DNA from: an uncultured Candidatus Saccharibacteria bacterium
GTDB taxonomy: Bacteria > Patescibacteriota > UBA1384 > DATEAH01 > CAYPSR01
Length of the DNA: 63,182 nt
NCBI GenBank assembly: GCA_964413595.1
Contig: CAYPSR010000001.1
Span: 1 to 63,182 of the forward strand
Direction of reading: 5' to 3'
This document shows, piece after piece, positions 47,601 to 63,182 of the stretch (position 1 is the first letter of the stretch; each line of letters opens with the position of its first letter). The translations under genes were made by a program, and so were the position numbers. Below the pieces are notes generated by a model that was given only the letters and a program-made list of their open reading frames with translations, ran no database searches and had not been told where the DNA came from.

Positions 47601-47608
47601 TTTCAGGT

Positions 47609-48269: not shown

Positions 48270-48308
48270 TTAATACCTCTCCAAGTTATTTCTACTCTCT
48301 ACTTTATA

Positions 48309-49757
48309 TTATTTTATCTTCTTTCTAATATATTCTTTCAAGTCCCCAATCGCAACCCTAGCTTGTTTCATAGTATCGCGGTCACGAATGGTAACTTTTT
48401 TATCTTTTAAACTATCAAAATCAAATGTTAGACAATATGGAGTTCCGATTTCGTCTTGTCTTCTATATCTTCGACCAATTGATCCGCCCTCATCATATTC
48501 AATTGCCCCAAATTCTTGTTTTAGGTCTTGATATATTTTTTTAGCATCAGGTGATAATTTTTTGCTTAATGGCAGAACCGCTGCTTTTACTGGCGCAATT
48601 TTAGGATCAAAATGCATTACCACTTCTTTTTCTACACCGGTTTCTGACTCAGACCTCCCACCTTTTACCTCTTCATAATTATCACAAATAATAGCCAAAA
48701 ACATCCTACCCATTCCCATTGTTGGCTCAATAACATATGGCAAATATTTCTTCCCTGATTGTTCATCAAAATATTGAAGATCTTTTCCACTCGCTTCTTG
48801 GTGTGATTTTAGATCAAAATCTGTTCTATTCGCCAAACCAGTTAATTCTTTAGTTCCGAAAGGAAACTTGTACTGCAAATCTACAGTTCTTTTTGAATAG
48901 TGCGAAAGTTCTGCTTTTGGATGCTCATGTTCTTCGATATTTTTTAAATCAATACCAATTGCCGAAACAAAATCTTTCCATTCTTTCAACCATTTTTCAA
49001 ACCATATCTCATCTTCCCCTGCTTGCCCCGAGCCTGGTCGAGGGGGCATAACAAAATATTCAATTTCTGCAATTTCAAACTCGCGAACACGAAAAAGGTA
49101 TTCTCCGGTTGTAATTTCATTTCTAAAACATTTTCCAATTTGAGCAATACCAAACGGGAGTTTCTTTCTTGTTGAATCTACAACATTTTTAAAATTAACA
49201 AACATGCCCTGTGCAGTTTCTGGCCTTAAATATGTCATATCCTCATTATCATCAACTGGCCCAACATATGTTTTAAACATCGTGTTAAAAGATTTCTCAT
49301 CAGTCAAATCACCTTCACATTTTAGACATTTTGTTTGCGATTTGGAGTTTGATATTTGTTTGGAATTTGTTTCTTGTGATTTGAGATTTTCGATTTCGTC
49401 TAATCGAAATCGGCTATGGCATTTTTTACATTCAACCAAAGGGTCTGTAAATCCCTTTTCGTGACCCGATGCTTGCCAAACTTTTCGGTTCATCAAAACT
49501 GAAGAATCAATTCCAATCACATCATCTCTTTTTTCAACAAAAGTTTTCCACCAAAGGTTTTTTATATTTCTATATAATTCAACTCCGTATGGCCCAAAAT
49601 CGTAAACTCCACCAATTCCCCCATAAATCTCAGATGACGGATAAACAAAACCGCGTCTCTTTGCCCAAGAAACGATTGCTTGCATTTTACTTGTTCTGAG
49701 CGCAGTCGAAGAATTGTCTGATTTTTGTTCTAATTTTTTGTCTGATTTTTCAACCAT
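48309..49757 (-). CDS. glyQS: glycine--tRNA ligase (class II, GlyQS type)
   Basis: 'YGGIGGVYDFGPYG', 'RPETAQG', 'FRNEITTG', 'GGSIGRRYRRQDEIGTP'. Trimmed to Met23 (AAGGAG SD); the track extension covers a repeat. Confidence 0.92.
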   Translation of the reverse strand: MVEKSDKKLEQKSDNSSTALRTSKMQAIVSWAKRRGFVYPSSEIYGGIGGVYDFGPYGVELYRNIKNLWWKTFVEKRDDVIGIDSSVLMNRKVWQASGHEKGFTDPLVECKKCHSRFRLDEIENLKSQETNSKQISNSKSQTKCLKCEGDLTDEKSFNTMFKTYVGPVDDNEDMTYLRPETAQGMFVNFKNVVDSTRKKLPFGIAQIGKCFRNEITTGEYLFRVREFEIAEIEYFVMPPRPGSGQAGEDEIWFEKWLKEWKDFVSAIGIDLKNIEEHEHPKAELSHYSKRTVDLQYKFPFGTKELTGLANRTDFDLKSHQEASGKDLQYFDEQSGKKYLPYVIEPTMGMGRMFLAIICDNYEEVKGGRSESETGVEKEVVMHFDPKIAPVKAAVLPLSKKLSPDAKKIYQDLKQEFGAIEYDEGGSIGRRYRRQDEIGTPYCLTFDFDSLKDKKVTIRDRDTMKQARVAIGDLKEYIRKKIK

Positions 49758-49777
49758 ATTTTTACTCCTTTCAAACC

Positions 49778-49853
49778 GTGTCATCCCCGACCAGATCGGA
49801 AATCCAAGATAGAAATCTATCATATAGATCCCGCATCAAGTGCGGGATGACAA
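49778..49853. repeat. MITE-like hairpin repeat, family A
   Basis: gtgtcatccccgaccagatcggaaatccaagatagaaatctatcatatagatcccgcatcaagtgcgggatgacaa. Confidence 0.8.
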
Positions 49854-49931
49854 AGTTACTTTAAAAACTACACAAAATTTTATTAGTTCTAATTTTAATT
49901 ATACCAAATTCCCCACCCCAAAGTCCAAAAA

Positions 49932-50897
49932 CTATTCTTGTTCAACTATCGGGGTTGTAAATTTGCCTTGTAAAATCTGCCAACCCTGTGGTTTTAAATC
50001 TTCATGACTAAAATATTGAGTTGTAATATCACAACTAAGCGAAGGGTCTAGACCATTGTATCTAAAATCTGATACAAAATATGGCGCCATAGACTTCTGG
50101 TGCATCTCTGGATTATAAACCCATGAGGTTAATTTTGTAATTTGCCCCTCATCATTTCTTATAAAATCAACATCCGCTTGCCAAAGACCACCGCTTAACT
50201 GTATGGGATAAGATGCATGAGTAACCCGATCATCAGCACCTATAATAACACCACCAGTAAATCCTTTTTGATTCGGCAATCCAGGAAAGTAAAAATACTC
50301 TGTTACAATACGCATTCCACCATTTTTAGTCTTATACATCCTTATTAATCTTTTATCAACCAGATGACCAAGTTGATCAGCGATTTCTAATGACAAATCA
50401 CCATCAGTATGTTGAGATAAAGCAAAACAAGAAACTTCTGAAGTATTTTCATTTTCAATATCATAAACACAACCTATTTGATCTTCACAAAAACTAATTC
50501 TTGATCTGTAATCTGCTTCATCTACTGTCTTTCCCCACCTGTGGTTTTTGACAATTAATTGATTTTTACTCAAAGAAATATCTCCTGAATAATAACCTAC
50601 TTCTCCGCTTATATTTTTTGTGTCGTAACCAATTCGATGAATGCCTTTATGATCTTGTGTATGACTAAACATAACTGATTTATAAGATCTCACTCCCCCA
50701 TAATCAGCCAAATTAACTCGATACATTCCTTGCGCAATCATTTCTGCCATTAAAAGTTCGTCATAAGATCCAAATAATCTCATTAATCTTGGAATAGTTT
50801 CTAAGGTTAATTTTTGAGTTTCAAGCTCGGGCAACAAAACCTCTGGCCTAATTCTTTCCCCTTCTTGCTGTGGTAAATGTCCACCTGTTTCTGCCAT
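49932..50897 (-). CDS. hypothetical protein of atypical composition; fused-form paralogue of 52072..52704 plus 51802..52065
   Basis: 'IPRLMRLFGSYDELLMAEMIAQGMYRV' vs 'LWPILRSLGSYREFMMGELTQQGLRRV'. C-terminal 'FRYNGLDPSLSCDITTQYFSHEDLKPQGWQIL' vs 'FNYSGDECNVYTQLGHGNLPENWNVL'. Confidence 0.65.
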   Translation of the reverse strand: MAETGGHLPQQEGERIRPEVLLPELETQKLTLETIPRLMRLFGSYDELLMAEMIAQGMYRVNLADYGGVRSYKSVMFSHTQDHKGIHRIGYDTKNISGEVGYYSGDISLSKNQLIVKNHRWGKTVDEADYRSRISFCEDQIGCVYDIENENTSEVSCFALSQHTDGDLSLEIADQLGHLVDKRLIRMYKTKNGGMRIVTEYFYFPGLPNQKGFTGGVIIGADDRVTHASYPIQLSGGLWQADVDFIRNDEGQITKLTSWVYNPEMHQKSMAPYFVSDFRYNGLDPSLSCDITTQYFSHEDLKPQGWQILQGKFTTPIVEQE

Positions 50898-51036
50898 AAT
50901 AATCTCCTATTTTTATTTTTATAAACTTATTTCATAACTCCAAATCATTGCTATAATTCTATAGAATAACAGAATACTATCTTTAGCATTTTTTGATACT
51001 ATTATTTTTTTTCTTTTTAAAATCTGTCATCCCGGA

Positions 51037-51774
51037 TCAAGTCAGGAATGGCAGCAAGGCTGTCACTTTTTTCAAATCCTCTGGCGTGTTAATTCCAAAA
51101 GCTTCTTGGGATTTCTTACAAATTATTCCCTCAACTGCTTCACCCTGAGATATTGCCAAGCCAACCGTATCGGTCAAATAATATTCACCTTGCTTATTTA
51201 ATTTCTTTAATTTACCAATATTATTAAAAAGCCAAAAATTATCAAAAGCATAAAAACTTGCGTGCATTTCGCGAACTTTTAATTCCTGTTTGCTACAATC
51301 TTTTGTTTCGACAATTTTAATTACTTTCCCAAATTTGTCTCTAATAGTTCTTCCGTAATTAAATGAATCAGGAATTTTTGCTGAAGTAATAGTAATCTTG
51401 GGTCGAGCTTTTCTAAAAGTATGAATAATTTTACGAGCGGTTTTTAAACTCCACAAAGGCATATCAGCAAAATACACCAAGGTAATTCCCTTTTTTCCTT
51501 TTAACAATTTTGATGCTGATTTTACTGCATGTCCTGTTCCAAACTGTTGATATTGGATAACATATTTAGCACGATTTTTTAAATACTTTATAATTTGATC
51601 TTTTTTATATCCAACAACCACGATTGGTTTTACTTTTAATTTTTCAGCCAATTTAACCGCATATTCAATGAAGGGTTTATTATTTAATAAAACCATCGCC
51701 TTGGGTTTACCTTCAGCAAGTTTCTCTAGCCGAGTTCCCTTTCCTGCTGCTAAAATTATGATATTTATTTTCAT
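51037..51774 (-). CDS. sugar-phosphate nucleotidyltransferase (GlmU N-terminal-domain-like)
   Basis: 'IIILAAGKGTRL' and 'QFGTGHAV'. The last codons run into a family A half repeat (51024-51054). Confidence 0.8.
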   Translation of the reverse strand: MKINIIILAAGKGTRLEKLAEGKPKAMVLLNNKPFIEYAVKLAEKLKVKPIVVVGYKKDQIIKYLKNRAKYVIQYQQFGTGHAVKSASKLLKGKKGITLVYFADMPLWSLKTARKIIHTFRKARPKITITSAKIPDSFNYGRTIRDKFGKVIKIVETKDCSKQELKVREMHASFYAFDNFWLFNNIGKLKKLNKQGEYYLTDTVGLAISQGEAVEGIICKKSQEAFGINTPEDLKKVTALLPFLT

Positions 51775-51801
51775 TTTTAGATATTCTACAAGTGTTACAA
51801 A

Positions 51802-52065
51802 TTAATATGCTTCACCTAAAACATTCCAATTTTCTGGTAAGTTACCATGGCCTAATTGTGTATAAACATTACATTCATCGCCAGAATAATTAAACACAGT
51901 TTTTGCAACAAGTTCATCAACCAAACCGTTTTTAACATATCTGCCTCCCATATCTAAAACTCGCCCTATTTCATCTCTTTGAATTTTAAAACTCATAGTG
52001 TCATAATTTGGATGATTAACTGGAAAACTGACGTTAAACACCTGATTTCGAGAATTTTTAAACAT
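51802..52065 (-). CDS. hypothetical protein matching the C-terminal part of 49932..50897
   Basis: 87 aa. Starts 6 nt after the 52072 stop. Confidence 0.55.
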   Translation of the reverse strand: MFKNSRNQVFNVSFPVNHPNYDTMSFKIQRDEIGRVLDMGGRYVKNGLVDELVAKTVFNYSGDECNVYTQLGHGNLPENWNVLGEAY

Positions 52066-52071
52066 GCTTAT

Positions 52072-52704
52072 CTATGCTTGATAGGTTCTACGAGAAATTC
52101 CTTCGTATTCGCCTTCTTCACCATACATTTCAAACTCATATGTCCTGGAGATTTTTGTATGACTTCTGCTTTCTCTTACTGAAATGTCGCGTTGTTCACA
52201 AAAATTCTCGCCAAAACAATAAAAAAGCAAGTTTCCGTCTTTGGATTTTAATAATGCTTTTCTTTCCATTAGACCATCTTTATGTTCAATCCAAAAACCA
52301 TTTATACCCATATGCATATCAGTTACAAAAATACGCCCCGAATCGCATTCGCGAGTTTCACAAACCAAATGCGGTTTTCCATCCTTGCCCTCTATTTTAA
52401 ATTTACTTTCCAGTTGTTTTCTTTTTTCTTGATCCAATGAATCTTGTTCATGCACAATCAAATTGCCATCTCCATCATATTGGAAATGATGAACTTCCAA
52501 AAGCTTAGGAACTCTCCCTTCCCAAAATTCTACGCGCCTTAATCCTTGTTGGGTCAACTCACCCATCATAAATTCCCTATAAGATCCCAGAGACCTTAAA
52601 ATAGGCCATAAAGAACCGAGTTCTAATTCCCCCTCTTTTAATTCAAGCATTTCCCTAATCGCTTGATTCCCCTGATAAAGCTCTGGTTTTTCAACTACTG
52701 CCAT
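52072..52704 (-). CDS. hypothetical protein matching the N-terminal two thirds of 49932..50897
   Basis: 210 aa. SD and 5' flank (AGGAGATTGTT-ATGGCAG) are near-identical to those of 50897 (AGGAGATTATT-ATGGCAG). Confidence 0.6.
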   Translation of the reverse strand: MAVVEKPELYQGNQAIREMLELKEGELELGSLWPILRSLGSYREFMMGELTQQGLRRVEFWEGRVPKLLEVHHFQYDGDGNLIVHEQDSLDQEKRKQLESKFKIEGKDGKPHLVCETRECDSGRIFVTDMHMGINGFWIEHKDGLMERKALLKSKDGNLLFYCFGENFCEQRDISVRESRSHTKISRTYEFEMYGEEGEYEGISRRTYQA

Positions 52705-52741
52705 AACAATCTCCTAATTTTTATTTTATTAATAATATACT

Positions 52742-52767
52742 CCTCTGGTATTCTGCAGAACACCAGA
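52742..52767. repeat. second copy of the ctggtattctgcagaa(t/c)accag palindrome
   Basis: Reverse complement of 8558-8583 with 1 mismatch. Followed by a tcttatttctcatctcttatctcttcc word element (52779-52808) related to 45140-45169. Confidence 0.8.
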
Positions 52768-52808
52768 ACACTTATTCATCTTATTTCTCATCTCTTATCT
52801 CTTCCCAC

Positions 52809-53924
52809 TTACTTAATATAAACCCTTGGAATCATTGGATTAATACGAGTTACTACTTCATAATTTATTGTCTCTAAATATCCTGCAAGTTCTCCGGCGG
52901 TAATATTTTCATTTTCTTGCTTACCAATTAAAACAACTTCATCACCAATTTTTATATTCTCTACAGCTGAAACATCTAACATCATTGCATTCATACAAAC
53001 TTTCCCAATAACCGGCACACGCTTGCCACCAACAAGTACTTTAGCAATATTAGACAATTTCCTATCATAACCGTCTGCATAACCAACCGGCACCGTTGCA
53101 ATATAAGATGGGCTATTAACCTTGGTATCATTGCCATAACCAACATTCTCACCGCCTGGAATTTTTCTAATTTGAGCAATTTTTGTTTTCCAAGAAAGAG
53201 CTGGCGTAAGATCAAAAAATGTTCCAAGTTCTGGAGTTGGTGACAATCCATATAAAGTTATTCCCAGTCTTACCATGTCAAAATGAGTTGAAGTCATAGA
53301 AAGTGTTGCGGCTGAATTTGCAATATGAAATGTTAAATTAGAAAACCCAGCTTTTTCAAGCATGTCTTTAGACTCCTGAAAAGTCCCAAGTTGTTTAAAG
53401 GTTAAGCTTTTTTCCCGACCCTCAGCATTAGCAAAATGAGAATAAACCCCAACGGTATTTATTTTAGGCTGTCTTTTTAAAAATACAGCAAACTCAACAA
53501 TTTCTGATTTTTCCAAACCATATCTATTCATTCCAGTATTTAATTTAATATAAACATTAGCCGGTTTTTTAATTTCTATTGCTGCTTTAGAAAGCTGACG
53601 AACCATATCTCTATCCCAAACAGTAAGATCTAAATCATTAGTTATAGCCGTAATATAATCCCCAAAACCAGCAAAACCTAAAACCAAAACCGGTTTTTCA
53701 ATTTTTGCTTTTCTTAGCCTAACTCCTTCATCAATAGATTCAACGGCAAAACAATCAGCGCCAGCAAACTCCAAAGCCTTAGCTGTTTCTTCGAGCCCAT
53801 GACCATAAGCGTCAGACTTTACTACTGCCATGATTTTAGTTTCGGGTTTAATATAGTTTCTTAAAGCTCTAAAATTGCTTTTTATTTTCCCGAGATCAAT
53901 TTCCAACCAATTATGATAAATCAT
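52809..53924 (-). CDS. alr: alanine racemase
   Basis: 'AVVKSDAYGHG' PLP-lysine motif and 'PVGYADGY'. Confidence 0.92.
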   Translation of the reverse strand: MIYHNWLEIDLGKIKSNFRALRNYIKPETKIMAVVKSDAYGHGLEETAKALEFAGADCFAVESIDEGVRLRKAKIEKPVLVLGFAGFGDYITAITNDLDLTVWDRDMVRQLSKAAIEIKKPANVYIKLNTGMNRYGLEKSEIVEFAVFLKRQPKINTVGVYSHFANAEGREKSLTFKQLGTFQESKDMLEKAGFSNLTFHIANSAATLSMTSTHFDMVRLGITLYGLSPTPELGTFFDLTPALSWKTKIAQIRKIPGGENVGYGNDTKVNSPSYIATVPVGYADGYDRKLSNIAKVLVGGKRVPVIGKVCMNAMMLDVSAVENIKIGDEVVLIGKQENENITAGELAGYLETINYEVVTRINPMIPRVYIK

Positions 53925-54699
53925 TTTTTAACCTTTCAATTTTTTCTAAAAATGAGGCGGACAAAAACCTTCTTTCTGTATTATAATCAATATACTTTAA
54001 AAGTAATACATTAATTTTATCATCTAAATTATCATCTATTTTTTTCAAAATATCAAGAGGTTTAAGATTATTTAGATAAAGATTCTTACCAATATTCAAA
54101 TATATGCGAAGTATTTTAACTTCATTTTCCGATATTTTTTGCGTATTTCCTTTTCCCAAACAACCAGCACAAATTAATCCGCCCATCTCATATGAAAAAT
54201 ACAGGTCTTTTGGATTAAGCTTATTATCACAATTTACGCAATGCTCAAGTTCTGGCTTTAATCCAATCTTTTCTAATATATTTATCAAAAAGAATCCAAT
54301 AACCTTTTCTGATATTTCAGCCGGATTTTGATTAATAAAATTATAACATGACAATGTCAAATTCATCAAGTTATAATGTTCTTCGCCAAGTTGCAAAAGC
54401 TTATCTAAAACCTCAGCAACTAAAAAAGCAATTCCAGTTTTAACTAGATCTGTTTCAATATTTTTAAAACTCTTGATATTTTCGGCGCTAGTAACAATAT
54501 CTAAGTTTTTACCTTCTGCGATTATAAGATCAAGATAATTAAAAAGATTTAAATAACCCGACATTTTAGCAGTAACACGCGAAGCGCCCTTGCCGATAAA
54601 TTCAATTTTTGCACCGCTGACGTTTACAGCTGTCAATATTTTATCAGCTTCATTAAGTTTTCGGCTTTTAATTATTAGCGCTTTTGTTTTAAAATTCAT
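53911..54699 (-). CDS. recO: DNA repair protein RecO
   Basis: OB-fold N-terminus 'KALIIKSRKLNEADKILT' and Zn motif 'CVNCDNKL...CAGC'. Confidence 0.85.
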   Translation of the reverse strand: MNFKTKALIIKSRKLNEADKILTAVNVSGAKIEFIGKGASRVTAKMSGYLNLFNYLDLIIAEGKNLDIVTSAENIKSFKNIETDLVKTGIAFLVAEVLDKLLQLGEEHYNLMNLTLSCYNFINQNPAEISEKVIGFFLINILEKIGLKPELEHCVNCDNKLNPKDLYFSYEMGGLICAGCLGKGNTQKISENEVKILRIYLNIGKNLYLNNLKPLDILKKIDDNLDDKINVLLLKYIDYNTERRFLSASFLEKIERLKNDLS

Positions 54700-54741
54700 A
54701 ACTCATTATACGCTGAAATGAAGCAAGATAGCAAATTATCC

Positions 54742-55026
54742 TTATAATATTTCTCGCGTGACAGGAAACGAATGTTCATTCTCTCTTAAAGCCGAATATT
54801 CTCTTGCAACCCTTGCTACTTCCAGATTCAACCCGGGTGATGGTAATTGAGATATCTCCAGATGTCTTTGTTCCTCTCTTCTTGTTTTTTCACTTTTCCT
54901 CCGCCCTTGACCAACAGCAGAACAAAACCTTGCAGCATGATCTGCATCTTTAAGACACATCCTAATCCCTTTAATATTAACCACCCCCGGTTCTCCACAG
55001 TAACACCTTCCTTCTTCTTTTGGCAT
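54742..55026 (-). CDS. small basic Cys-containing protein, markedly GC-richer than its surroundings
   Basis: AAGGAGG 3 nt upstream; 'CYCGEPG...MCLKDADHAARFC'; 94 aa. Confidence 0.5.
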   Translation of the reverse strand: MPKEEGRCYCGEPGVVNIKGIRMCLKDADHAARFCSAVGQGRRKSEKTRREEQRHLEISQLPSPGLNLEVARVAREYSALRENEHSFPVTREIL

Positions 55027-55064
55027 AAACCTCCTTTACCTCGAATGTAATCGAGAGATTTTAA

Positions 55065-55088
55065 AAATAAGCCCTTTTGGGCTTATTT
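55065..55088 (-). terminator. intrinsic terminator
   Basis: aaataagccc-tttt-gggcttattt, followed in minus sense by a T-rich run. Confidence 0.65.
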
Positions 55089-55243
55089 TATTTAACATTT
55101 GCAGTATAAATATTTATATTTTGGTAATTTGGATTCTAGAATGATAATGTTTTTTGATCTCATGCCTTCTTTTATCAATTTATATTATATAATAATCGCA
55201 AAGCGATACCATAATTTTTTATTTTTTATTTTTTATTTAATGT

Positions 55244-55471
55244 CTATTCTTCTTTGTGTTTAAATGTTCCTGCAAAAATAAACATTAAGGCTGAGATAAA
55301 AATCAAGCCAGCACCAATTGCAATTGCAATTCCCATAGTTTTTGCAGCTCCACCACCTGGAGTGATTAGGTCTGCTTCGGCAAAGATGTTAGTAAATAGT
55401 CCGTAGGCGGCAATTACTACTCCGACGACAAACATTCCAATCGCTGATTTTATCCATTTTAATTTTTTCAT
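55244..55471 (-). CDS. small two-TM membrane protein
   Basis: Trimmed to 'MKKLKWIKSAIG...' (AAGGAG 9 nt upstream). The track extension overlaps mutM. Confidence 0.55.
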   Translation of the reverse strand: MKKLKWIKSAIGMFVVGVVIAAYGLFTNIFAEADLITPGGGAAKTMGIAIAIGAGLIFISALMFIFAGTFKHKEE

Positions 55472-55589
55472 CTGAAAAACTCCTTTCATATATCCTCTTG
55501 GCGTGATCCTGAGAAGTGATAACAACGCGAGGATCTCGTTTTTATTATCTAATTCTATATTAGATTTATTTTTAAAAATTTGCAAGGGC

Positions 55590-56438
55590 TTATTTCTGAC
55601 ATTTAGGACAAAAGTGAGTACCTCTACCATTTAATTTGATTTTTTTAATTATTCCACCACAACCACATTTTTGACCTTGCTTATTATATACCTTAAAATA
55701 ATCTTGTGCTTTCCCTTGTTTTCCTTCACAGGTTAGATAATCTTTAATTGACGCTCCTTGATATTTAATTCCTTTTTTTAAAACAATCTTGATTGCCTGA
55801 AATAACTTCTCGATTTTTTTATTCGATATTTTTGCAGCGATTTTTCTAGGATCAATTTTTGCCAAATACAATGCTTCATCAGCATACATATTACCAATTC
55901 CTGAAATCTTTTTTTGATCCATTAAAACTTTTTTAATATTAGATTTTTTAGCTGAATTTAAAATCTCTTTAAAATATTTTATATTAAAATCTTTCGAAAA
56001 CGGCTCAGGCCCAAATTCTTGTTCAAGATATCTCTGAAGATCTTTTTTATCCATTATTTTAAACCAACCAAATCTTCGCAAATCATTATAATATAATTTC
56101 CCGCCTGATTTTATATCTATTATAATCCTAGTGTGCTTATGAGGAACGGATTTACATAATTCTCTTGATTGATGCCCACCGGCAATCATTTTATCTTTAT
56201 TTATATAAATAAATTGCCCAGTCATTTTTAAATGAACTATGAGATCTTGTTTGCCAACCAAATCAAAAATCACCAACTTCGCTCGCCGATAAATTGAATT
56301 GATTTTCTTATTTATAATTATCTTAGGATCAAAGCCAATTATCTTCTTGTCCAAAATTTCAATCTTAGAAAAAGATTTTCCCTTTAAGGCTTTATTTAAA
56401 CCATTGCTAATTGTTTCAACTTCAGGAAGTTCGGGCAT
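55590..56438 (-). CDS. mutM: formamidopyrimidine-DNA glycosylase
   Basis: 'MPELPEVE' N-terminus and C-terminal zinc finger 'CGCGG...THFCPKCQ'. Confidence 0.93.
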   Translation of the reverse strand: MPELPEVETISNGLNKALKGKSFSKIEILDKKIIGFDPKIIINKKINSIYRRAKLVIFDLVGKQDLIVHLKMTGQFIYINKDKMIAGGHQSRELCKSVPHKHTRIIIDIKSGGKLYYNDLRRFGWFKIMDKKDLQRYLEQEFGPEPFSKDFNIKYFKEILNSAKKSNIKKVLMDQKKISGIGNMYADEALYLAKIDPRKIAAKISNKKIEKLFQAIKIVLKKGIKYQGASIKDYLTCEGKQGKAQDYFKVYNKQGQKCGCGGIIKKIKLNGRGTHFCPKCQK

Positions 56439-56629
56439 TGTATTAGTTAATAGTCAAAATTAATAAATGATAATTATTTTTATCAGAAATTATTTCATTA
56501 AAAATTGAATCATTGATTTTCTGTTCTAATTTATTATATCATAATATTACAGCCCTAAAACATCAAGACATTTTTTACCCCTTATTTGTATATTCGTAAG
56601 ATTAGTATATTGGTAGGAGAAAATTTATA

Positions 56630-57598
56630 ATGCGCATTGTTGTTATTGGCGGAGGAACTGGAACTTTTCCAGTTTTGTCAGGATTAAAAAAATATGTTCC
56701 AAATATTACTGCAATTGTCACAATGGCAGACTCTGGCGGACATTCTGGGTATTTGGCAGACGAACTTGGAATGTTGCCTCCTGGGGATATTAGGAATTCT
56801 CTGGTTGCATTATCAGATGAATCAAAACAACAGGTTTTAAGACAACTCTTAGCCCACAGAATCTGTTTTAAAGATGGTAGAGAAGAAAATATCGGTAATT
56901 TAATGATTGCAGCACTTGAAGAAATTTTTAATGATTTTGAAAAAGGCGTGGATTTTTTAGCAGAACTTTTACATTCACACGGAGATGTTATCCCTGTAAC
57001 CTTAGAAAAAACTAAGCTTCATGCCAAAACAATAGACGGAAAAATAATTATTGGTGAAAAAAATATTGATATTCCAAAAACCAAATATCGATCTCCTATT
57101 AAAAAAATATGGTTAAAACCCGTTCCTAGCGCCAATCCGAAAGCGATTAAGGCTATAAGTAGCGCTGAAGCAATAATAATTGGCCCGGGAGATGTCTTTA
57201 CAAGTCTTATACCTAATCTTTTAGTAAAAGGCATGAAAAATGCTATTAAAAAATCAAAGGCTAAAAAAATCTATATTTGCAACTTAATGACAAAAAATGG
57301 CGAAACAGACAAATATATGGCTTCGCATCATATTGAACAAATAGAAAACTATCTTGGCGAAAAAGTATTAGATGCAGTAATTATAAATAATAAAAAAATT
57401 CCTATTAAGCTAGCTAAAAAATATAAAAAAGAATTTTCAGAGCAAATAATATATGATACCGAAAATCTAGAAAAAGTAACTTATAAAATATATCCCGCCA
57501 ATCTATTGACCACAAAAGCAGACTTAATCAGACATGACAGCAATAAATTAGCACGACATATTTTATCCATCGTTCTCAGCCTAAATGGAAATCACTAA
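56630..57598 (+). CDS. YvcK/CofD-family (gluconeogenesis factor-like) protein
   Basis: 'MRIVVIGGGTGTFPVLSGLK', 'TMADSGGHSG', 'IIIGPGDVFTSLIPNL'. Confidence 0.88.
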   Translation: MRIVVIGGGTGTFPVLSGLKKYVPNITAIVTMADSGGHSGYLADELGMLPPGDIRNSLVALSDESKQQVLRQLLAHRICFKDGREENIGNLMIAALEEIFNDFEKGVDFLAELLHSHGDVIPVTLEKTKLHAKTIDGKIIIGEKNIDIPKTKYRSPIKKIWLKPVPSANPKAIKAISSAEAIIIGPGDVFTSLIPNLLVKGMKNAIKKSKAKKIYICNLMTKNGETDKYMASHHIEQIENYLGEKVLDAVIINNKKIPIKLAKKYKKEFSEQIIYDTENLEKVTYKIYPANLLTTKADLIRHDSNKLARHILSIVLSLNGNH

Positions 57599-57659
57599 TA
57601 AATAAAATCCGGACGCATACATTTGCTATCAGGATTTTTGTGTTTTGAATTTTTAAAAA

Positions 57660-58451
57660 CTACATTTGCGAATCAGATGTGTCACTTGGTCCAACTGAAT
57701 CATCTGAACCTGCTGGCATTGTTGCATCATCTCTAATTGGCAAAGGAGGAAGTGGCTGACCATCAGCGTCCGCAGAAACTCCCGGCGCTGGAGGCGTTTG
57801 TGGTAGCGCGTCAGTTGGTGGAGAATCAACGCCTATATTCATATCAGCTGGTTGGTTTGAGTCAACAGATGGCATATCTGACACAGTAGCCTGTGCGTTT
57901 ACATCCATTGATGAGTTAGTATCTGTTGGCATATTTTGATCTTGACTAGCCATTGAAGAATTTGCTTGGCTCATATCCGCTGGGGAGGCCATATCTATTG
58001 GCTGGTCAACTGGCATTGTAGCTTGATTTTCTGTTGGGCTCACTGCGGGCATTTCAGTTGGCACGGCTTGGCCATCAACCGGCAAATCAACTTGAGCTTG
58101 ATCAGTTGGCACGGCCGAAGTTTGATCTGCTGGTGCCTGCGAAGTTGTTTGAGACGTATCAACTGGAGTCTGAGTTTGATCTGTTGGTTGACTAATATCT
58201 GAAGACCCAACCGGCGCTTGGGACATATCAGAAGGCGCTGACGAAGTATCAGTCGCATCCCCTTGACCGTCCGCAATTGGTGTCGATGTTAAATCAGTTG
58301 GATTAGATGGTGGGGTGTTCATGCTGTCAATTCCTCCCTGTACATTTTGATCGGCTGGTTGTTGGGTTTGATCTTGTGTCTGATCGTCGGCAACACCTGC
58401 ACTTTGAGTTTGATCTGATTGATCATCTTTTTTCTTAAAAAATGAAAACAT
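57660..58451 (-). CDS. intrinsically disordered polyacidic protein with about 12 degenerate P-[ATV]-D-[QMT] repeats
   Basis: 'MFSFFKKKDD' is followed by 250 residues with a single Arg and no Lys. About 50% GC locally. AAAGGAG SD. Confidence 0.6.
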   Translation of the reverse strand: MFSFFKKKDDQSDQTQSAGVADDQTQDQTQQPADQNVQGGIDSMNTPPSNPTDLTSTPIADGQGDATDTSSAPSDMSQAPVGSSDISQPTDQTQTPVDTSQTTSQAPADQTSAVPTDQAQVDLPVDGQAVPTEMPAVSPTENQATMPVDQPIDMASPADMSQANSSMASQDQNMPTDTNSSMDVNAQATVSDMPSVDSNQPADMNIGVDSPPTDALPQTPPAPGVSADADGQPLPPLPIRDDATMPAGSDDSVGPSDTSDSQM

Positions 58452-58624
58452 AATTGACTCCTTTATCCCGAGCTTGTCGAGGGATTTTGCCCCTAAAATC
58501 CAAATAGGATTATTGTCGAGAATTTTGTTTTAAGTTAATGAAATTAATTAAGAATATTAAGCCTATAAAGTTTAATTTTAATTATTAAATAACTTCATAT
58601 TCTTTGTATTCTTAATATTCTCCT

Positions 58625-59089
58625 TTAACTTTTTGCTTTAGCTTTAAAAAATAACCAAGAATTTTGCGTTCCTTTAAAATTGGTGCGAATTAAATGATAT
58701 TTCTCTTTTAGTTTATCACCACTAAATCCTATTTGCAAATGGCCTTTTTCCAGAGTCCCTTCCTCGATTTGATATTTTCCTTTATCCCAAATTTCCACTT
58801 TTCCTGCGCCGTATTCTCCTTTTGGAATTGTGCCGTGGAATTTTGCATACTCGAGCGGATGATCCTCAACCATAATTGCAAGTCTTTTTAAATTTGATTT
58901 CATTGGCGGTTTTTTTGGAATTGCCCAAGATTTTAAAACTCCATTCATTGCCAAACGCAAATCCCAATGCAGATTTTGCGCATTGTGTTTATGAACTACA
59001 AAGATGCTACGATTTTTATTTTTTATAGATCCCTTAGGTTCCGATGTCTTGATGAAATTTCGTTTAGATTTATATTCTTTTAGAAACAT
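58625..59089 (-). CDS. LigD-type 3'-phosphoesterase domain protein (stand-alone)
   Basis: 'FVVHKHNAQNLHWDLRLAMNGVLKSWAIPKKPP'. Confidence 0.8.
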   Translation of the reverse strand: MFLKEYKSKRNFIKTSEPKGSIKNKNRSIFVVHKHNAQNLHWDLRLAMNGVLKSWAIPKKPPMKSNLKRLAIMVEDHPLEYAKFHGTIPKGEYGAGKVEIWDKGKYQIEEGTLEKGHLQIGFSGDKLKEKYHLIRTNFKGTQNSWLFFKAKAKS

Positions 59090-59229
59090 GGCAATTTTAA
59101 ATTATAATTTTTAAATTTTAAATCAATTTCCAATTATTAAATAACATAAATGATAAGTAGTATTGTCATTTCAAAAGAAGCGAGAAATCTCATTCATTAT
59201 TCCTTATTTATGATTCTATGTTTCATTAT

Positions 59230-59667
59230 TTAATAATCTTTATCAAACCAAAACTCACCTTCAAAAAACTCTTTTTTCAAAAACATTGGCAACCAATATC
59301 TATCATTTGGAAACATTTTATTATATGGGATTTTACTCAAATCAAACCATTTTACTTCCATTTCCTTTGATTCACATAGCACACCATCATATTCTAGCAT
59401 TTCATAATAATGAACTTCCATTTCTGGATCATCTATATAATGAAACGTTAAAACGCCACGTTTCTCAAATTGTTTAACCCTAACTCTGCATTCTTCTTTA
59501 CATTCTTTTTCCAAACCATTTTCTAAAGATTCTCCTTTTTCAATTTTCCCACCAAACCCCAACCATTTTCCCTTACCAAAACTTCTTTTCTTTCTTCCCA
59601 ATAAAACCTTGCCGTCTTTTACAGCTAATGCCTCTGTCATCAATTTTTTTTCTTTAGATTTTGACAT
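59230..59667 (-). CDS. NUDIX hydrolase (MutT-like)
   Basis: 'GGKIEKGESLENGLEKECKEECRV' Nudix box. Confidence 0.8.
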   Translation of the reverse strand: MSKSKEKKLMTEALAVKDGKVLLGRKKRSFGKGKWLGFGGKIEKGESLENGLEKECKEECRVRVKQFEKRGVLTFHYIDDPEMEVHYYEMLEYDGVLCESKEMEVKWFDLSKIPYNKMFPNDRYWLPMFLKKEFFEGEFWFDKDY

Positions 59668-59707
59668 TTGATTTTTTGTTTGTAATTTAGATTTAGGGTT
59701 TTGAAAT

Positions 59708-60991
59708 TCAGAATGGTTTCCCCTGCTTTTCTTTTATTATATCACTTTCTGACTTTGGATTTTGAGTAATCGATTCAATCGGCACATAAATTTTTCCAAA
59801 AACTCCATCGTATCCCGGTTCTTTTACAACCTCGCCTTTTCGCATTTTTTCTATTGACGCTGAAATTAACGGACTTGATGTAACTTTTGCAATTTGAACA
59901 ATTGGTACATCTTGCAAAACTGCAAATTCAGATCCAAAATATCCAACCAATTTTTCTGATTCTTCAATTACTTTTTTCGAATACGCTCCAACCCCAAATA
60001 CATGACCAATTATCTCATTTAATGGAATTGCATAAACAACTTTTGACGCTTTTTTTGGTTTTTCGCCAATTTCCCTGTCGGCCAATTCCTCAACCCGATG
60101 ATCAACACCTAATGTTAAAGGCCTGTGACAAACCGGGCAGATATTATTATTTTTAATTGATTCTTGCGGATTCATAACTATATTACAATTTCTATGTCCG
60201 TCATAGTGATATTTTCCTTCTTCTGGAAAAAATTCAATTGTATATTTTAATTTTTCAGTATCTTTATTTTTTAATGTTTCACTTAGGTTTTCAAATGTAT
60301 ATTCACTTGGCTTCCACTCAAAAACATTTGCCTCTCGCATCAAGTTTTTTACAGAATGTGCATCTGAATTTGAAAGCAGTGTCAAACCATCTAGTTGCGA
60401 AACTCGCCAATTCATAGAAGGATCAGATGACAGCCCGGTTTCATAAGCATAAATATATTTTGTATATTTTCCATAACAATCACTCAAACTATCAAAACCA
60501 GAATTTGATCCAAATAAAGAAAACCACGGTGTCCAAATATGCGCTGGAATAACCAAAGACTGCGGACTTTCGTTCCAAATGATTTCTACTAATTTTTCAC
60601 TGTCTAGCCCCAAAATCGGCCTACCATCACTGTGCAAATTCCCCACTTTGGACAGTTTTGAATTAATTTTTTTTGCATCACTTATTGATGGACATAAAAC
60701 TAGATTATGAATTTTTCGAACTTTATCGCCTTTTTTGTAAATTGATGATATTTCCGCAGACAAAACAAACTTAACATCTTTTGAGCCTTTTTTAGGAATT
60801 AAAAAACCAGAGCCATCTTCCTCCATGTCCTTTGAAATCTCTGTTATCCAAACAGGGTGGGTAAAATCCCCGGTTGCTAATAAATTGATACCTTTTCTTT
60901 TAGCACCAGCTGATAAAGTTTCAATGCTTAAATCCCGAGACGTCGCCCGGGAATATTTTGAATGAATATGAAAGTCCGCTATTATTCTCAT
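59708..60991 (-). CDS. PHP-domain endonuclease Q-like protein
   Basis: 'IADFHIHSKYSRATS' and Zn finger 'CPVCHRPLTLGVDHRVEEL'. Confidence 0.7.
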   Translation of the reverse strand: MRIIADFHIHSKYSRATSRDLSIETLSAGAKRKGINLLATGDFTHPVWITEISKDMEEDGSGFLIPKKGSKDVKFVLSAEISSIYKKGDKVRKIHNLVLCPSISDAKKINSKLSKVGNLHSDGRPILGLDSEKLVEIIWNESPQSLVIPAHIWTPWFSLFGSNSGFDSLSDCYGKYTKYIYAYETGLSSDPSMNWRVSQLDGLTLLSNSDAHSVKNLMREANVFEWKPSEYTFENLSETLKNKDTEKLKYTIEFFPEEGKYHYDGHRNCNIVMNPQESIKNNNICPVCHRPLTLGVDHRVEELADREIGEKPKKASKVVYAIPLNEIIGHVFGVGAYSKKVIEESEKLVGYFGSEFAVLQDVPIVQIAKVTSSPLISASIEKMRKGEVVKEPGYDGVFGKIYVPIESITQNPKSESDIIKEKQGKPF

Positions 60992-61002
60992 TCTTTCCTT
61001 TT

Positions 61003-61074
61003 CTTGTCATTCCGGAATTTCAAAGAAATATCCGGAATCTATATAATAGTTCTCGATTTCGCTCGAACAATAAT
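61003..61074. repeat. composite repeat: family A left hairpin + family B right half
   Basis: cttgtcattccggaatttcaaagaaatatccggaatc...atagttctcgatttcgctcgaacaata. Confidence 0.7.
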
Positions 61075-61139
61075 TCTTTCTATTAACTTCTAACTAATAT
61101 CTATTAACTATTATTATAATTATAATTATAGCACAAAAC

Positions 61140-61928
61140 CTATTCTTCTTTATGAATTTGTATTTCTCGAATCATATTGTAAGATATTCCACGTTCAATC
61201 CCATCACTTTCAACAACAAAATGTAAATCCAATCCTTGATTTCGAAATATAACATTTGTCATGTTTAAATTTGATATCAGAATAACTTCGGAAGCCACAT
61301 GCTTTAATTTGTAACCACCTTTTCCGTCTGGCTCGTATAGAGGAGAATCATAAATTACGATATCGACTGGCCCAATATCTTTTATTTTTTCAAAAGCGTT
61401 CTGAATTGCTATCGATTCCAAATGACAAACACTAGCAAATGACTCATGACCACCTGCTCGACCAATCTGACCCAAAGAATGTATGACCTGCTCTTGGAAG
61501 TCCTTCAATCTCCCTTGTTTCTGTTCTAAGGTTATGCCCCCTTCCTCCTCCTCGGCCCTTGCAAATTGTTCTTCAATAAATTCTGCTACCTCTTCCCCCT
61601 CCTCGACTTGTTTTGAGGCTTCTGGTTGACTTGCGTCTTCAATTTCTAAAACATTTTTTACTGGAATTGCATCAAAACCCAGTTGATAATTATGGCCAAT
61701 TGATAATTTTGAGGTTCTGTCCAATGTTGCTTTACCAGTTTCGCGATTAATTAAAAATGTTTGATGTTCAACATATGTTCCTTTCGGATCAAATGTAATT
61801 TGCATTTTTTCTGGCAATAAACCTGGTATATTTATTAATTCATCAACAAAACGATTTAAAACCTCAAGCTTTACCGACTCTTCTGGAGCGCTCGCATAAC
61901 TTCTTACAGATAAAAGAAAATTCAACAA
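61140..61928 (-). CDS. hypothetical acidic two-module protein (family with 29158..30249)
   Basis: Module ends 'DAIPVKNVLEIED' and 'GISYNMIREIQIH'. Linker 'AEEEEGGITLEQKQ'. The start is uncertain (TTG in the track; no ATG before Met42). Confidence 0.6.
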   Translation of the reverse strand: MLNFLLSVRSYASAPEESVKLEVLNRFVDELINIPGLLPEKMQITFDPKGTYVEHQTFLINRETGKATLDRTSKLSIGHNYQLGFDAIPVKNVLEIEDASQPEASKQVEEGEEVAEFIEEQFARAEEEEGGITLEQKQGRLKDFQEQVIHSLGQIGRAGGHESFASVCHLESIAIQNAFEKIKDIGPVDIVIYDSPLYEPDGKGGYKLKHVASEVILISNLNMTNVIFRNQGLDLHFVVESDGIERGISYNMIREIQIHKEE

Positions 61929-61941
61929 CCCGGGTTCTCGT

Positions 61942-62175
61942 TCACGTAATTCCTGCTAAGCCTCTGTAGCGGCTGTTCCATTTCCTCGGTTTAATAAAAA
62001 ATCTAAAACATTCTGCACTCTTTTCAAAATCTCCAAAACCGCCATCGGATCTAGTTTCTGTTCCCCTTGATTCAGCATCTTGCATGGCTTCGTCAAATAC
62101 TTGTCTAAATTTTTGGCTATCTTGTCTTAACCGATCTAGCTGTTTATCCCCTTCCCCAATTAAATGTTCTCCCAT
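61942..62175 (-). CDS. hypothetical small protein
   Basis: GGAGG 5 nt upstream of the ATG. Acidic N-terminus and a basic tail that may reflect a frame problem near a T6 run. Confidence 0.45.
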   Translation of the reverse strand: MGEHLIGEGDKQLDRLRQDSQKFRQVFDEAMQDAESRGTETRSDGGFGDFEKSAECFRFFIKPRKWNSRYRGLAGIT

Positions 62176-62211
62176 AAAACCTCCAATAAAATATTAAATT
62201 ATTTATACTTT

Positions 62212-62682
62212 TTATTCTTCACTTAATTCTATTCCCCTTAAATCATCAAGAAAAACTACTTTTCTCAAACCGCCTGGTAAAGTAATCTCTAAAAAATCTA
62301 CTTCAATTTGATGATCGTCATTAAGATCAATAACACAACGCACTTCAGCCTGAAGATATTCTCCAATGTGGGTTATGCGTTTTTTTGGATCTACACCGTC
62401 TCTGGAAGAATCAAAACCAACAACAAATTTGTTGCTAGAAAAAAACCCTTCATTTTGTAATTTTTCAAGCCAATAAGAAAGACCTTTGTCTAATTCAGCA
62501 ACTGCTTCTTGACACTTCATAATTTCATTCATATGGCACGGAAGCAAAGATTCAGGAATTGATTTTAAATCTTCTCTCATGCCCAACGCAGAATTTATCA
62601 TAACCAAAGTCGCCAAATGCTGTTTTTCTTGTTCCCCCGATATTTCACCGCCTGTTTGTGCTTCTGGATGTCCTAATGTCAT
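62212..62682 (-). CDS. hypothetical acidic one-module protein
   Basis: Ends 'VVFLDDLRGIELSEE'. Start overlaps the upstream stop (ATGA). Confidence 0.6.
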   Translation of the reverse strand: MTLGHPEAQTGGEISGEQEKQHLATLVMINSALGMREDLKSIPESLLPCHMNEIMKCQEAVAELDKGLSYWLEKLQNEGFFSSNKFVVGFDSSRDGVDPKKRITHIGEYLQAEVRCVIDLNDDHQIEVDFLEITLPGGLRKVVFLDDLRGIELSEE

Positions 62683-63182
62683 TTTTGCTCCTGTTTTGTT
62701 GGTTCTACTTTTTGAATTGAAGAAACTGGAATTATAATATCTTTCCCTTCAATTTCAAGTGTCAATAATATTAAATTGGTTGTCATCCCCCATCTTGGAT
62801 CATCAACTTGTTCCATCACATTTGGTTCTGGCATTTTTAACCGACCTTGAACAATTGGATCTTCAATAAAATATTCTCCATGATTCAATGAATTTACACA
62901 ATCTATATTATCAGGATCATTTAATAAAAAAACTTTTGCCATTTCCCCTTCTCGCAAACCAAATTCTCCAATTATCCATTCTAAATCTGCTTTCAATCTA
63001 TCTGGTTGAAATTGTATTGCAAAAGTCTGAAGCGCTTCTAAATGATCAAGAGCTTCTGAAATATCTGATGCTTGTTCTTGATCTTCTGGCAACCCAAAAA
63101 ATTCCGCCGCAATTTCGCCGAATCCCTCCACCGCCTGTGCTTCTAATCGTGCCGGATATGGATTTTGATCACTGCGCGAAAC
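62679..63182 (-). CDS. hypothetical acidic one-module protein, probably truncated by the window edge
   Basis: The track start at 63131 is a GTG without SD. The frame stays open to 63182 (VSRSDQNPYPARLEAQAV...). Ends 'IIIPVSSIQKVEP'. Confidence 0.55.
   Translation of the reverse strand, partial: VSRSDQNPYPARLEAQAVEGFGEIAAEFFGLPEDQEQASDISEALDHLEALQTFAIQFQPDRLKADLEWIIGEFGLREGEMAKVFLLNDPDNIDCVNSLNHGEYFIEDPIVQGRLKMPEPNVMEQVDDPRWGMTTNLILLTLEIEGKDIIIPVSSIQKVEPTKQEQK

What the first reader, a model, noticed from the sequence alone, without database searches (positions are those of the whole stretch)
61140..63182. Operon of four acidic orphan genes built from a repeated module ending in [IV]-[PSF]-x-x-x-[ILV]-x-x-[IM]
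Four co-directional, tightly packed genes have codon and amino-acid usage unlike the backbone: many Glu, Gly, Gln, His and Trp, few Lys, Asn and Ile, and locally higher GC. 62679.. and 62212.. overlap by ATGA. Their C-termini align by eye: 'IIIPVSSIQKVEP', 'VVFLDDLRGIELS', 'GISYNMIREIQIH'. An internal copy 'DAIPVKNVLEIED' lies in 61140..61928. Each motif is preceded by alternating hydrophobic strands and followed by acidic residues. The N-termini of 62212.. and 62679.. share 'EAQ.GGEI / EAQAVEGFGEI', and about 20 nt of near-identical DNA (62647-62668 vs 63127-63145), so they are recent paralogues. No hydrophobic segments, signal peptides or catalytic motifs were recognisable. The first gene is cut by the window edge.
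Basis: seen in the sequence. Interest (0 to 1): 0.7.

Follow-up and report, generated by a model that had tools for sequence, protein, structure and literature searches.

The report
Fast-evolving acidic orphan gene cluster
This is a real but very narrowly distributed cluster of fast-evolving acidic genes of unknown function in a small-genome (CPR-like) bacterium; two of the four "genes" are pieces of one broken gene, and the shared end motif is probably the closing element of a small beta-barrel fold.

Summary
The genes exist and sit as described on the minus strand. A and B overlap by ATGA. All are acidic (pI 4.2-4.8, proteome median 9.3) with no membrane segment. No curated library (Pfam, PHROGs, PADLOC, NCBIfam) and no PDB sequence gave a significant match.

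Three corrections:
- C and D are one gene. Together they are a paralogue of 29158..30249 and an orthologue of an intact 357-aa protein (P0017) in a related organism. In this species an in-frame TAG (61956-61958) breaks the gene. In this strain a G3->G4 frameshift (62063-62066) breaks it again.
- The cluster is native, not foreign: GC3 is 0.236 against 0.228 for the backbone. The higher GC follows from Glu/Gln-rich, Lys-poor composition.
- A and B are not recent paralogues. The "20 nt" match is a 9-mer plus a 7-mer read in different frames.

The shared C-terminal motif exceeds chance (z 5.5). Whole-module homology between A, B and C/D is not demonstrable.

A moderate-confidence AlphaFold model of A places the motif as strand, short 3-10 turn, last strand of a small Sm/SH3-like beta-barrel.

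The cluster (U-A-B-CD, beside EndoQ) keeps its order in relatives and evolves 6-9 times faster than EndoQ. Its 5' end varies between strains, and the contig breaks exactly there.

Function is unknown. I infer non-enzymatic binding proteins.

The parts
62679..63182 (-). Gene A, 3' 167 codons plus stop. The full protein is 176 aa on L001 and L005. It is acidic (pI 4.16).
   Evidence: An orthologue with 58% identity (P0016) lies on L004.
62700..62738 (-). A motif 'IIIPVSSIQKVEP'. In the AlphaFold model it is the last part of one strand, a 3-residue helical turn and the final strand (Sm2-like).
   Evidence: The 10-residue blocks covering it have mean pLDDT 83 and 75.
62212..62682 (-). Gene B, 156 aa, pI 4.68. 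Its ATG overlaps the TGA of A. The Shine-Dalgarno sequence is AGGAG.
   Evidence: A partial orthologue with 31% identity lies on L007.
62221..62259 (-). B motif 'VVFLDDLRGIELS'. The orthologue has 'AISLDDLEGILLS'.
61942..62175 (-). Gene C as called (77 aa, SD GGAGG). Its last ~37 codons, from the G run on, are read in a derived frame after a +1 G frameshift.
   Evidence: The N-module HMM hits both frames, at 1.7e-13 and 1.1e-14.
62063..62066 (-). G4 run. It is G3 in L002 and L005, and G4 in the window, L001 and L003. G3 keeps the ancestral frame.
   Evidence: The L002 residues (KPDP, LEDLK) match orthologue P0017.
61956..62062 (-). Remainder of the ancestral frame of C ('..DPMAVLEILKRVQNVLDFLLNRGNGTAATEA'). 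It ends in a TAG at 61956-61958 that is in frame with D.
61140..61928 (-). Gene D, 262 codons. The only possible start is a TTG with no Shine-Dalgarno sequence. D is the C-terminal three quarters of the ancestral two-module gene.
61635..61673 (-). Internal motif 'DAIPVKNVLEIED', which ends the first module.
61536..61634 (-). Acidic Glu-rich linker between the two modules. It sits within the local GC maximum (0.42-0.43 in 300-nt windows).
61152..61190 (-). C-terminal motif 'GISYNMIREIQIH', which ends the second module.
29158..30249 (+). Intact two-module paralogue E (363 aa, pI 4.86). Its motif copies lie at 29659-29697 and 30196-30234.

Best explanation
What it is:
- A native, lineage-restricted, fast-evolving operon (U-)A-B-C/D in a Patescibacteria-like bacterium. 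It encodes cytoplasmic, strongly acidic, non-enzymatic proteins.
- Each protein or module has a hydrophilic Glu/Gln/Gly-rich N-terminal tail, then amphipathic helices, then a small beta-barrel of SH3/Sm-like topology.
That is why it sits at the end of every protein and at the end of the first module of the two-module proteins.
- C and D are two pieces of one two-module gene. That gene is a paralogue of 29158..30249. An in-frame TAG breaks it in this species, and a G3->G4 frameshift breaks it again in this strain. It is decaying, or at best expressed as a split protein.

Shown:
- Gene anatomy, and the unity of C and D.
- Extreme taxonomic restriction, with conserved gene order in relatives.
- Fast evolution.
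- Native codon composition.
- Motif similarity above chance.

Inferred:
- The barrel fold rests on one moderate-confidence model of A.
- That the other modules share this fold.
- That the proteins act by binding partners through barrel edge strands and acidic surfaces. The partners could be basic proteins or nucleic-acid-binding proteins, or the proteins could bind each other as oligomers.
For: C and D are one gene:
- On L002 gene C reads through in the other frame to the TAG, which is in frame with D.
- BLASTP of C+D against E gives E 1e-8 across the TAG.
- An exhaustive HMMER search of 1.84 billion representatives found only P0003, D itself and P0017. P0017 is 357 aa, uninterrupted, at E 2e-18.
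- P0017 lies between a B orthologue and EndoQ on L007.

The cluster is restricted:
- D matches only itself, E has one homologue and A has two among 5.8 billion proteins.
- Scans of genome, viral and metagenome contigs found nothing.
- Phage and plasmid searches found nothing.
- None of 80 EndoQ neighbourhoods carries a homologue.

It evolves fast but is coding:
- Against L007, EndoQ is 87% identical with dN 0.10. B is 31% identical with dN 0.88. CD is 37% identical with dN 0.62.
- dN/dS is 0.25-0.6.
- Across the window, L001, L002, L003 and L005 I count 7 nonsynonymous changes, 1 synonymous change and 2 indels in A-C. The EndoQ stretch shared by the window, L001 and L002 shows no differences.

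It is native: GC3 is 0.236 against 0.228.

The motif is real.

The fold:
- In the AlphaFold model of A, residues 70-173 have block-mean pLDDT mostly 61-83. It has a helix at 99-108, then strands, ending E156-161, H162-164 and E165-170.
- Foldseek top hits are small barrels: a 30S-assembly-factor chain (E 0.01) and dozens of Hfq/Sm chains (E 0.02-0.1, target TM-score 0.55-0.69).
- A published survey describes beta4-3_10-beta5 ('Sm2') as a conserved signature of SH3-like small barrels, and notes tandem barrels (bioRxiv 10.1101/140376).
- The poor model of E also places short helical turns right after the Pro of both its motif copies.

Translation signals: A, B, C and E have Shine-Dalgarno sequences. 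D has none.
Against: - The fold rests on a single model built from 3 sequences. Mean pLDDT is 55, and only 2 of the 5 models exceed 50.
- No Foldseek match reaches E <= 0.001.
- The model of E is unusable (pLDDT 32).
- No sequence method links A, B, U and CD/E as whole modules.
- In the PSSM test, U and the N-module of E do not stand out.
- Nothing here bears directly on function or expression.
- D keeps a 262-codon open frame despite the upstream TAG. This fits either a very recent break or continued use.
Confidence: 0.55

Rival explanations
1. Immunity- or antitoxin-like array. The genes are a strain-variable island of heterogeneous small cytoplasmic proteins. Each neutralises a toxin or effector, as in the orphan immunity arrays of polymorphic toxin systems.
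For: - The array is a tandem of dissimilar small acidic proteins with no export signal.
- Evolution is fast and within-population changes are mostly nonsynonymous.
- The 5' end of the array differs between strains. L001 and L005 carry U. L002 carries a start-less fragment F ending '...IISTQIIREIKILELTEE*' and a different first 8 aa of A.
- Members are broken by stops in two species.
Against: - No toxin gene is visible. On L004 the operon starts at U, behind about 250 nt of non-coding DNA with a promoter-like TTGACC-17-TATTAT (the promoter is read by eye).
- There is no hit to any Pfam immunity family (Imm/SUKH) or to PADLOC.
- Gene order is conserved next to a housekeeping repair gene in relatives.
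Confidence: 0.15
2. The C-terminal motif is a generic amphipathic strand pattern. A, B, U and CD/E are unrelated orphan genes that merely sit together, so there is no common module.
For: - All whole-protein comparisons between families are non-significant.
- The motif is degenerate.
- Leave-one-out PSSM ranks are modest, and poor for U and the N-module of E.
Against: - The C-termini resemble each other far more than internal segments do (z 5.5).
- The best local hhalign alignments of the C-module against A and against B both fall on the extreme C-termini.
- All members share the same order of parts: acidic tail, helices, long strand, Gly turn, strand, turn, strand, acidic end.
Confidence: 0.2
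3. The cluster is decaying junk: non-functional remnants drifting in a small-population symbiont genome.
For: - C/D carries an in-frame TAG plus a frameshift.
- The A orthologue on L004 has an in-frame TAA.
- L002 carries a start-less fragment F.
- The nonsynonymous to synonymous ratio within the population is 7:1.
- recJ in the same window also carries an in-frame TAA.
Against: - Reading frames, gene order and Shine-Dalgarno sequences are kept across at least three diverged organisms. dN/dS is below 1 (0.25-0.6), and the C-terminal halves are strongly conserved.
- P0017, E and P0003 are intact.
- D keeps 262 open codons in an AT-rich genome.
Confidence: 0.1
4. C-TAG-D is expressed as one protein, through stop-codon read-through or recoding of TAG.
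For: - The TAG is in frame and present in every assembly seen (window, L001, L002 and L003).
- D has no Shine-Dalgarno sequence and only a TTG start.
- D stays open for 262 codons.
Against: - All three stop codons end long ORFs in this window: TAA 36, TGA 10, TAG 10.
- The majority haplotype also has a frameshift upstream of the TAG, so read-through alone would not restore the protein.
- Both the TGA of the shifted frame and the TAG lie 13-27 nt before D's TTG. Termination-reinitiation is therefore an equally simple route.
Confidence: 0.04

Closest known systems
Sm/LSm/Hfq and other small beta-barrels of SH3-like topology (SCOP b.38/b.34), as surveyed in bioRxiv 10.1101/140376
   Same: The predicted core of A is a helix followed by bent strands. 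It ends in beta4, a short 3-10 turn and beta5, which is the 'Sm2' element. Foldseek's most numerous matches are Hfq chains (target TM-score 0.55-0.69). Tandem barrels in one chain are known, as in CD and E.
   Different: There is no sequence match to the LSM, Hfq or PRC Pfam models. The proteins are strongly acidic rather than RNA-binding basic or neutral. Long helical and disordered N-terminal extensions are present. Ring formation and RNA binding are untested. The model confidence is only moderate.
PRC-barrel proteins (RimM C-terminal domain, YlmC/YmxH; Pfam PF05239)
   Same: The motif 'I-P-[VW]-x-x-I-x-x-I' near the end of a small barrel resembles the YlmC-type 'IPWxxIxxIG'. That comparison is from my memory and was not tested. 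The best Foldseek hit is chain X of the 30S assembly complex 7afi. I did not verify the identity of that chain.
   Different: PF05239 gave no hit at E <= 1. The Foldseek E-value is only 0.01.
Orphan immunity-gene arrays of polymorphic toxin systems (for example tandem EsaG/DUF600 or CdiI orphans; from my own knowledge)
   Same: A tandem, heterogeneous, strain-variable array of small cytoplasmic, fast-evolving proteins, with fragments and broken copies.
   Different: No toxin gene is seen, and no conserved pre-toxin sequence. There is no match to any immunity family. Gene order is stable next to EndoQ.
Taxonomically restricted (orphan) genes of CPR/Patescibacteria genomes
   Same: No homologues outside a handful of near relatives. 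The genes are embedded in a housekeeping chromosome region: the dcw genes, aminoacyl-tRNA synthetases, RecO, Fpg, RadA and RecJ.
   Different: Here the orphans form a small paralogous family with a recognisable common end motif and a two-module member.

Membership tests
Sm/LSm/Hfq-like small beta-barrel | N-terminal helix followed by five strongly bent antiparallel strands forming a small barrel | tested here: inconclusive
   The AlphaFold model of A has a helix at 99-108, then strands 119-125, 134-137, 142-145, 148-153, 156-161 and 165-170. Block-mean pLDDT is mostly 61-83, and 50 for residues 131-140. Foldseek against Hfq chains gives E 0.02-0.1 and target TM-score 0.55-0.69. No hit reaches E <= 0.001.
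Sm/LSm/Hfq-like small beta-barrel | Sm2 element: beta4 and beta5 linked by a short 3-10 helix at the end of the domain | tested here: met
   In the model of A: E156-161, H162-164, E165-170. This covers 'IIIPV-SSI-QKVEP'. The definition comes from bioRxiv 10.1101/140376. The test rests on a model, not on a solved structure.
Sm/LSm/Hfq-like small beta-barrel | Recognition by the family sequence profiles (Pfam LSM, Hfq) | tested here: not met
   No Pfam family at E <= 1 other than chance-level hits. NCBIfam gave none.
Sm/LSm/Hfq-like small beta-barrel | Ring oligomer and RNA binding | not testable with these tools
   This needs biochemistry. The acidic pI (4.2-4.9) argues against direct RNA binding.
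PRC barrel (PF05239) | Match to the PRC profile or a confident structural match to the RimM or RC-H barrel | tested here: not met
   No Pfam hit. The best Foldseek hit, 7afi_X, has E 0.01 and query TM-score 0.26.
Polymorphic-toxin immunity array | Tandem small cytoplasmic proteins whose content varies between strains | tested here: met
Polymorphic-toxin immunity array | A cognate toxin gene or toxin C-terminal domain adjacent, or a match to a known immunity family | tested here: not met
   No toxin-like ORF lies next to the array in the window or on L001-L007. U is preceded by non-coding DNA on L004. There are no Imm/SUKH or PADLOC hits. The rest of the genome was not available.
Alternative genetic code / stop reassignment | One stop codon absent as a terminator and frequent in frame within conserved genes | tested here: not met
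   Long ORFs end in TAA 36, TGA 10 and TAG 10 times.
Horizontally acquired or phage cassette | Deviant codon composition, mobile-element genes, or matches in phage or plasmid collections | tested here: not met
   GC3 equals that of the backbone. There were no phage, plasmid or viral-contig matches. Gene order beside EndoQ is conserved in a relative.

The most novel reading that the evidence does not exclude
This is a CPR-lineage-specific family of strongly acidic single- and tandem-small-barrel proteins. They would act as mimics or inhibitors of basic nucleic-acid-handling proteins, or as immunity proteins, and would diversify under conflict. That would explain the rapid evolution, the strain-variable array and the position of both loci beside DNA-repair genes: EndoQ, NUDIX and LigD-PE at one locus, RadA and RecJ at the other.
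Probability: 0.1. Interest if true: 0.6.

Novelty: new variant of a known kind. Interest (0 to 1): 0.3.

Why it matters
CPR bacteria carry very many unannotated genes. Here a set of them resolves into a small paralogous family with a probable fold, a defined repeat architecture and measurable rapid evolution. It also gives a concrete case of gene breakage, with a nonsense codon and a frameshift segregating between strains.

If the proteins prove to be conflict or interaction factors of an episymbiont, they would be an entry point to host or phage interplay. As it stands, this is an ordinary orphan cluster with a corrected annotation.

Tried and rejected
Searches that found nothing:
- Pfam, PHROGs, PADLOC and NCBIfam for A, B, C, D, E, U, P0003 and P0017 gave only chance-level hits.
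- PDB sequence searches with four profiles gave nothing significant.
- A k-mer-seeded search of 5.8 billion proteins with D, E and A found only near relatives.
- An exhaustive HMMER search with the CD/E profile found one new member.
- Scans of genome contigs (CD/E profile), viral contigs (A and CD/E) and metagenome contigs (B and U profiles) were empty.
- tblastn of A against phages, and of B against phages and plasmids, was empty.
- Using EndoQ as an anchor gave 80 loci, none with family members upstream.

Analyses that did not help:
- The AlphaFold model of E from a 3-sequence alignment was unusable (pLDDT 32).
- The BFVD fold search returned only uncharacterised small barrels at E >= 0.007.
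- hhalign and column-shuffle tests for module homology were non-significant, apart from N-half against C-half of CD/E at p about 0.02-0.035.
- The literature search found no description of such a family.

Ideas rejected:
- Stop-codon recoding.
- Foreign origin.
- A and B as recent paralogues.
- A tRNA or known RNA family in the region.
Full report
ANATOMY

The last 2 kb of the window carries four minus-strand ORFs: A 62679..63182 (open at the window end), B 62212..62682, C 61942..62175 and D 61140..61928.
- A's TGA and B's ATG overlap as ATGA.
- A, B and C have good Shine-Dalgarno sequences (AAGGAG on L001, AGGAG, GGAGG). D has none, and its only possible start is a TTG.
- The window is an entire 63,182-bp contig.
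- It belongs to a bacterial chromosome with a peptidoglycan/division cluster (MurG, FtsW, PBPs, MurB), aminoacyl-tRNA synthetases, RecO, Fpg, RadA and RecJ.
- Directly downstream of D lie an EndoQ-like protein (my reading; its Pfam PHP hit is only E 0.12), a NUDIX hydrolase and a LigD phosphoesterase.
- The nearest EndoQ proteins in 185,579 species genomes are only 57% identical. They come mostly from Patescibacteria, Saccharibacteria and Staskawiczbacteria MAGs. The CPR assignment is therefore plausible but inferred.

CHECK OF THE OBSERVATION

- The proteins are among the most acidic in a proteome whose median pI is 9.3.
- Glu and Gln are enriched. Lys, Tyr and Asn are depleted. Trp is not enriched.
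- Total GC is 0.365 against 0.320, but GC3 is 0.236 against 0.228. The GC rise is therefore a consequence of amino-acid composition and not a sign of foreign DNA.
- There are no membrane segments.
- The proposed 20-nt DNA identity between the 5' ends of A and B is a 9-mer and a 7-mer. B has 4 extra bases between them, and the 7-mer is read in different frames. The repeat finder did not report it. This is chance level.
- A and B are not detectably similar as proteins.

C AND D ARE ONE GENE

Exact-match look-ups found the same locus in other assemblies.
- On L002 gene C is 72 aa. After '...AESR' it reads in the frame that is only an 'alternative ORF' in the window. It ends at a TAG lying in D's frame, nine codons before D's TTG.
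- The difference is a G3 run (L002, L005) against a G4 run (window, L001, L003) at 62063-62066.
- C+D, with the TAG treated as X, aligns end to end with the 363-aa protein of 29158..30249. BLASTP gives E 1e-8 over 196 aa crossing the TAG.
- A profile of that family was searched exhaustively against 1.84 billion representative proteins. It found only P0003 (64% identical to E by BLASTP), D itself and P0017.
- P0017 is an uninterrupted 357-aa orthologue of C+D. On its contig it sits between a B orthologue (ending '...ISLDDLEGILLSEQSE*') and EndoQ.
- The two residues that differ between haplotypes in the shifted stretch are P and D on L002, as in P0017. The window's version is therefore the derived one.
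- All three stop codons terminate long ORFs here, so recoding is not the explanation.

In this species the gene is therefore broken by a nonsense codon. In this strain it is broken again by a frameshift. Both stops lie 13-27 nt before D's TTG. Reinitiation could still yield D as a separate product, but this is untested.

EXTENT AND VARIABILITY OF THE CLUSTER

- L005 and L001 show a further gene, U, directly upstream of A.
- A more distant relative, L004, has U-A behind about 250 nt of non-coding DNA with a promoter-like TTGACC-17-TATTAT, which I read by eye.
- L002 instead has a start-less fragment F ('...GDIISTQIIREIKILELTEE*') and a different first eight residues of A.
- The two versions diverge exactly where the window ends. 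The contig break therefore marks a strain-level structural polymorphism.
- Between the window organism and L007, EndoQ is 87% identical (dN 0.10, dN/dS 0.08). B is 31% identical (dN 0.88) and CD is 37% identical (dN 0.62).
- A, U and E compared with their relatives give dN/dS of 0.25-0.44, with the C-terminal halves much better conserved.
- Among the strain assemblies I count 7 nonsynonymous changes, 1 synonymous change and 2 indels in A-C. The shared EndoQ stretch shows no differences.
- The genes are therefore real, native and evolving 6-9 times faster than their neighbour, under weak constraint.

IS THERE A REPEATED MODULE?

Whole-module comparisons do not show one.
- hhalign E-values between the families (N-half and C-half of CD/E, A, B, U) are all 0.035 or higher.
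- Column-shuffle tests give z below 1.3, except N-half against C-half of CD/E at z 2.5 and p 0.017.

The C-terminal motif itself is a real signal.
- The last 20 residues of A, B, U, CD, E and F resemble each other far more than random segments of the same proteins (z 5.5, 0 of 3000).
- The top hhalign alignments of the C-module against A and against B fall on the extreme C-termini.
- A leave-one-group-out PSSM gives modest support. It is good for A, B, CD, E-C and F, and poor for U and E-N.
- A right-anchored view shows a common order: a long alternating strand, a Gly-containing turn, a strand ending in [IV]-[PS], three residues, then h-x-x-h-x-h and an acidic end.

STRUCTURE

- The model of E was unusable (pLDDT 32).
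- The model of A, from 3 sequences, has block-mean pLDDT mostly 61-83 over residues 70-173. It has a helix at 99-108 followed by strands, and ends E156-161, H162-164, E165-170. The motif is therefore strand, short turn, last strand.
- The leading Foldseek PDB hits are small barrels: a chain of a 30S assembly complex (E 0.01), PSV ORF137 and dozens of Hfq/Sm chains (E 0.02-0.1, target TM-score 0.55-0.69, rmsd 2.3-4 A). No hit reaches E <= 0.001.
- BFVD gave only uncharacterised small proteins.
- A published survey describes beta4-3_10-beta5 (Sm2) as a conserved, possibly universal signature of SH3-like small barrels. It also notes that such barrels often occur in tandem (bioRxiv 10.1101/140376).
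- I therefore read the motif as the closing element of a small barrel. This is an inference from one moderate model.

FUNCTION

Nothing here tests function.
- No catalytic family, export signal or defence-system profile matches.
- The most economical reading is non-enzymatic binding or oligomerising proteins with acidic surfaces.
- An immunity-like or mimic-like role would fit the rapid evolution and the strain-variable array. It lacks a visible toxin partner.
- Decay of a dispensable family is a live alternative for C/D, but not for the intact, conserved members.

VERDICT

- There are three genes here, not four, and one of them is broken.
- The cluster is not of foreign composition.
- A and B are not recent paralogues.

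The motif has a tentative structural explanation. Interest is modest.

Noticed in passing
window 30319..31995 (-), stop at 30805-30807: recJ is split by an in-frame TAA inside the conserved DHHA1 region ('...EALEKT*KYLIKYGGHYKAAG'). The DHH/DHHA1 part and the RecJ OB part are in the same frame. It could be a nonsense mutation, an assembly error or read-through.
   Followed up: partly
window 35311..36888 (+): A single 525-aa ORF fuses a LexA DNA-binding domain and an S24 peptidase to a C-5 cytosine DNA methylase.
   Followed up: no
window 18813..20135 (-): A second run of small acidic ORFs (66, 71, 63 and 152 aa; pI 4.2-5.2; GC 0.35-0.37). Only the 152-aa one was scanned, and it has no Pfam match. 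None shows the C-terminal motif by eye.
   Followed up: partly
window 57660..58451 (-): A 263-aa, very acidic (pI 4.05) low-complexity protein rich in Thr, Gln, Pro, Asp and Ser. Its GC is 0.47, which makes the local GC peak of about 0.50.
   Followed up: no
window 16560..18701 (+): A 713-aa ORF on the minority strand with no Pfam family.
   Followed up: no
L004 786..1204: The A orthologue of a related organism also has an in-frame stop (TAA), 11 codons after an ATG preceded by a Shine-Dalgarno sequence. Sequence homologous to A's helix follows it ('MTVENGTNLRI*EDVSDISEAFDHLEMLQ').
   Followed up: partly
window end 63182; L001 1..50, L002 1..420, L005 1..445: The contig ends exactly where strain assemblies diverge. 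Gene U lies upstream of A on L001 and L005. On L002 there is instead a start-less family fragment, next to a convergent gene with a hairpin terminator.
   Followed up: yes
window 1..63182: No tRNA gene and no Rfam family at gathering score anywhere in 63 kb.
   Followed up: no
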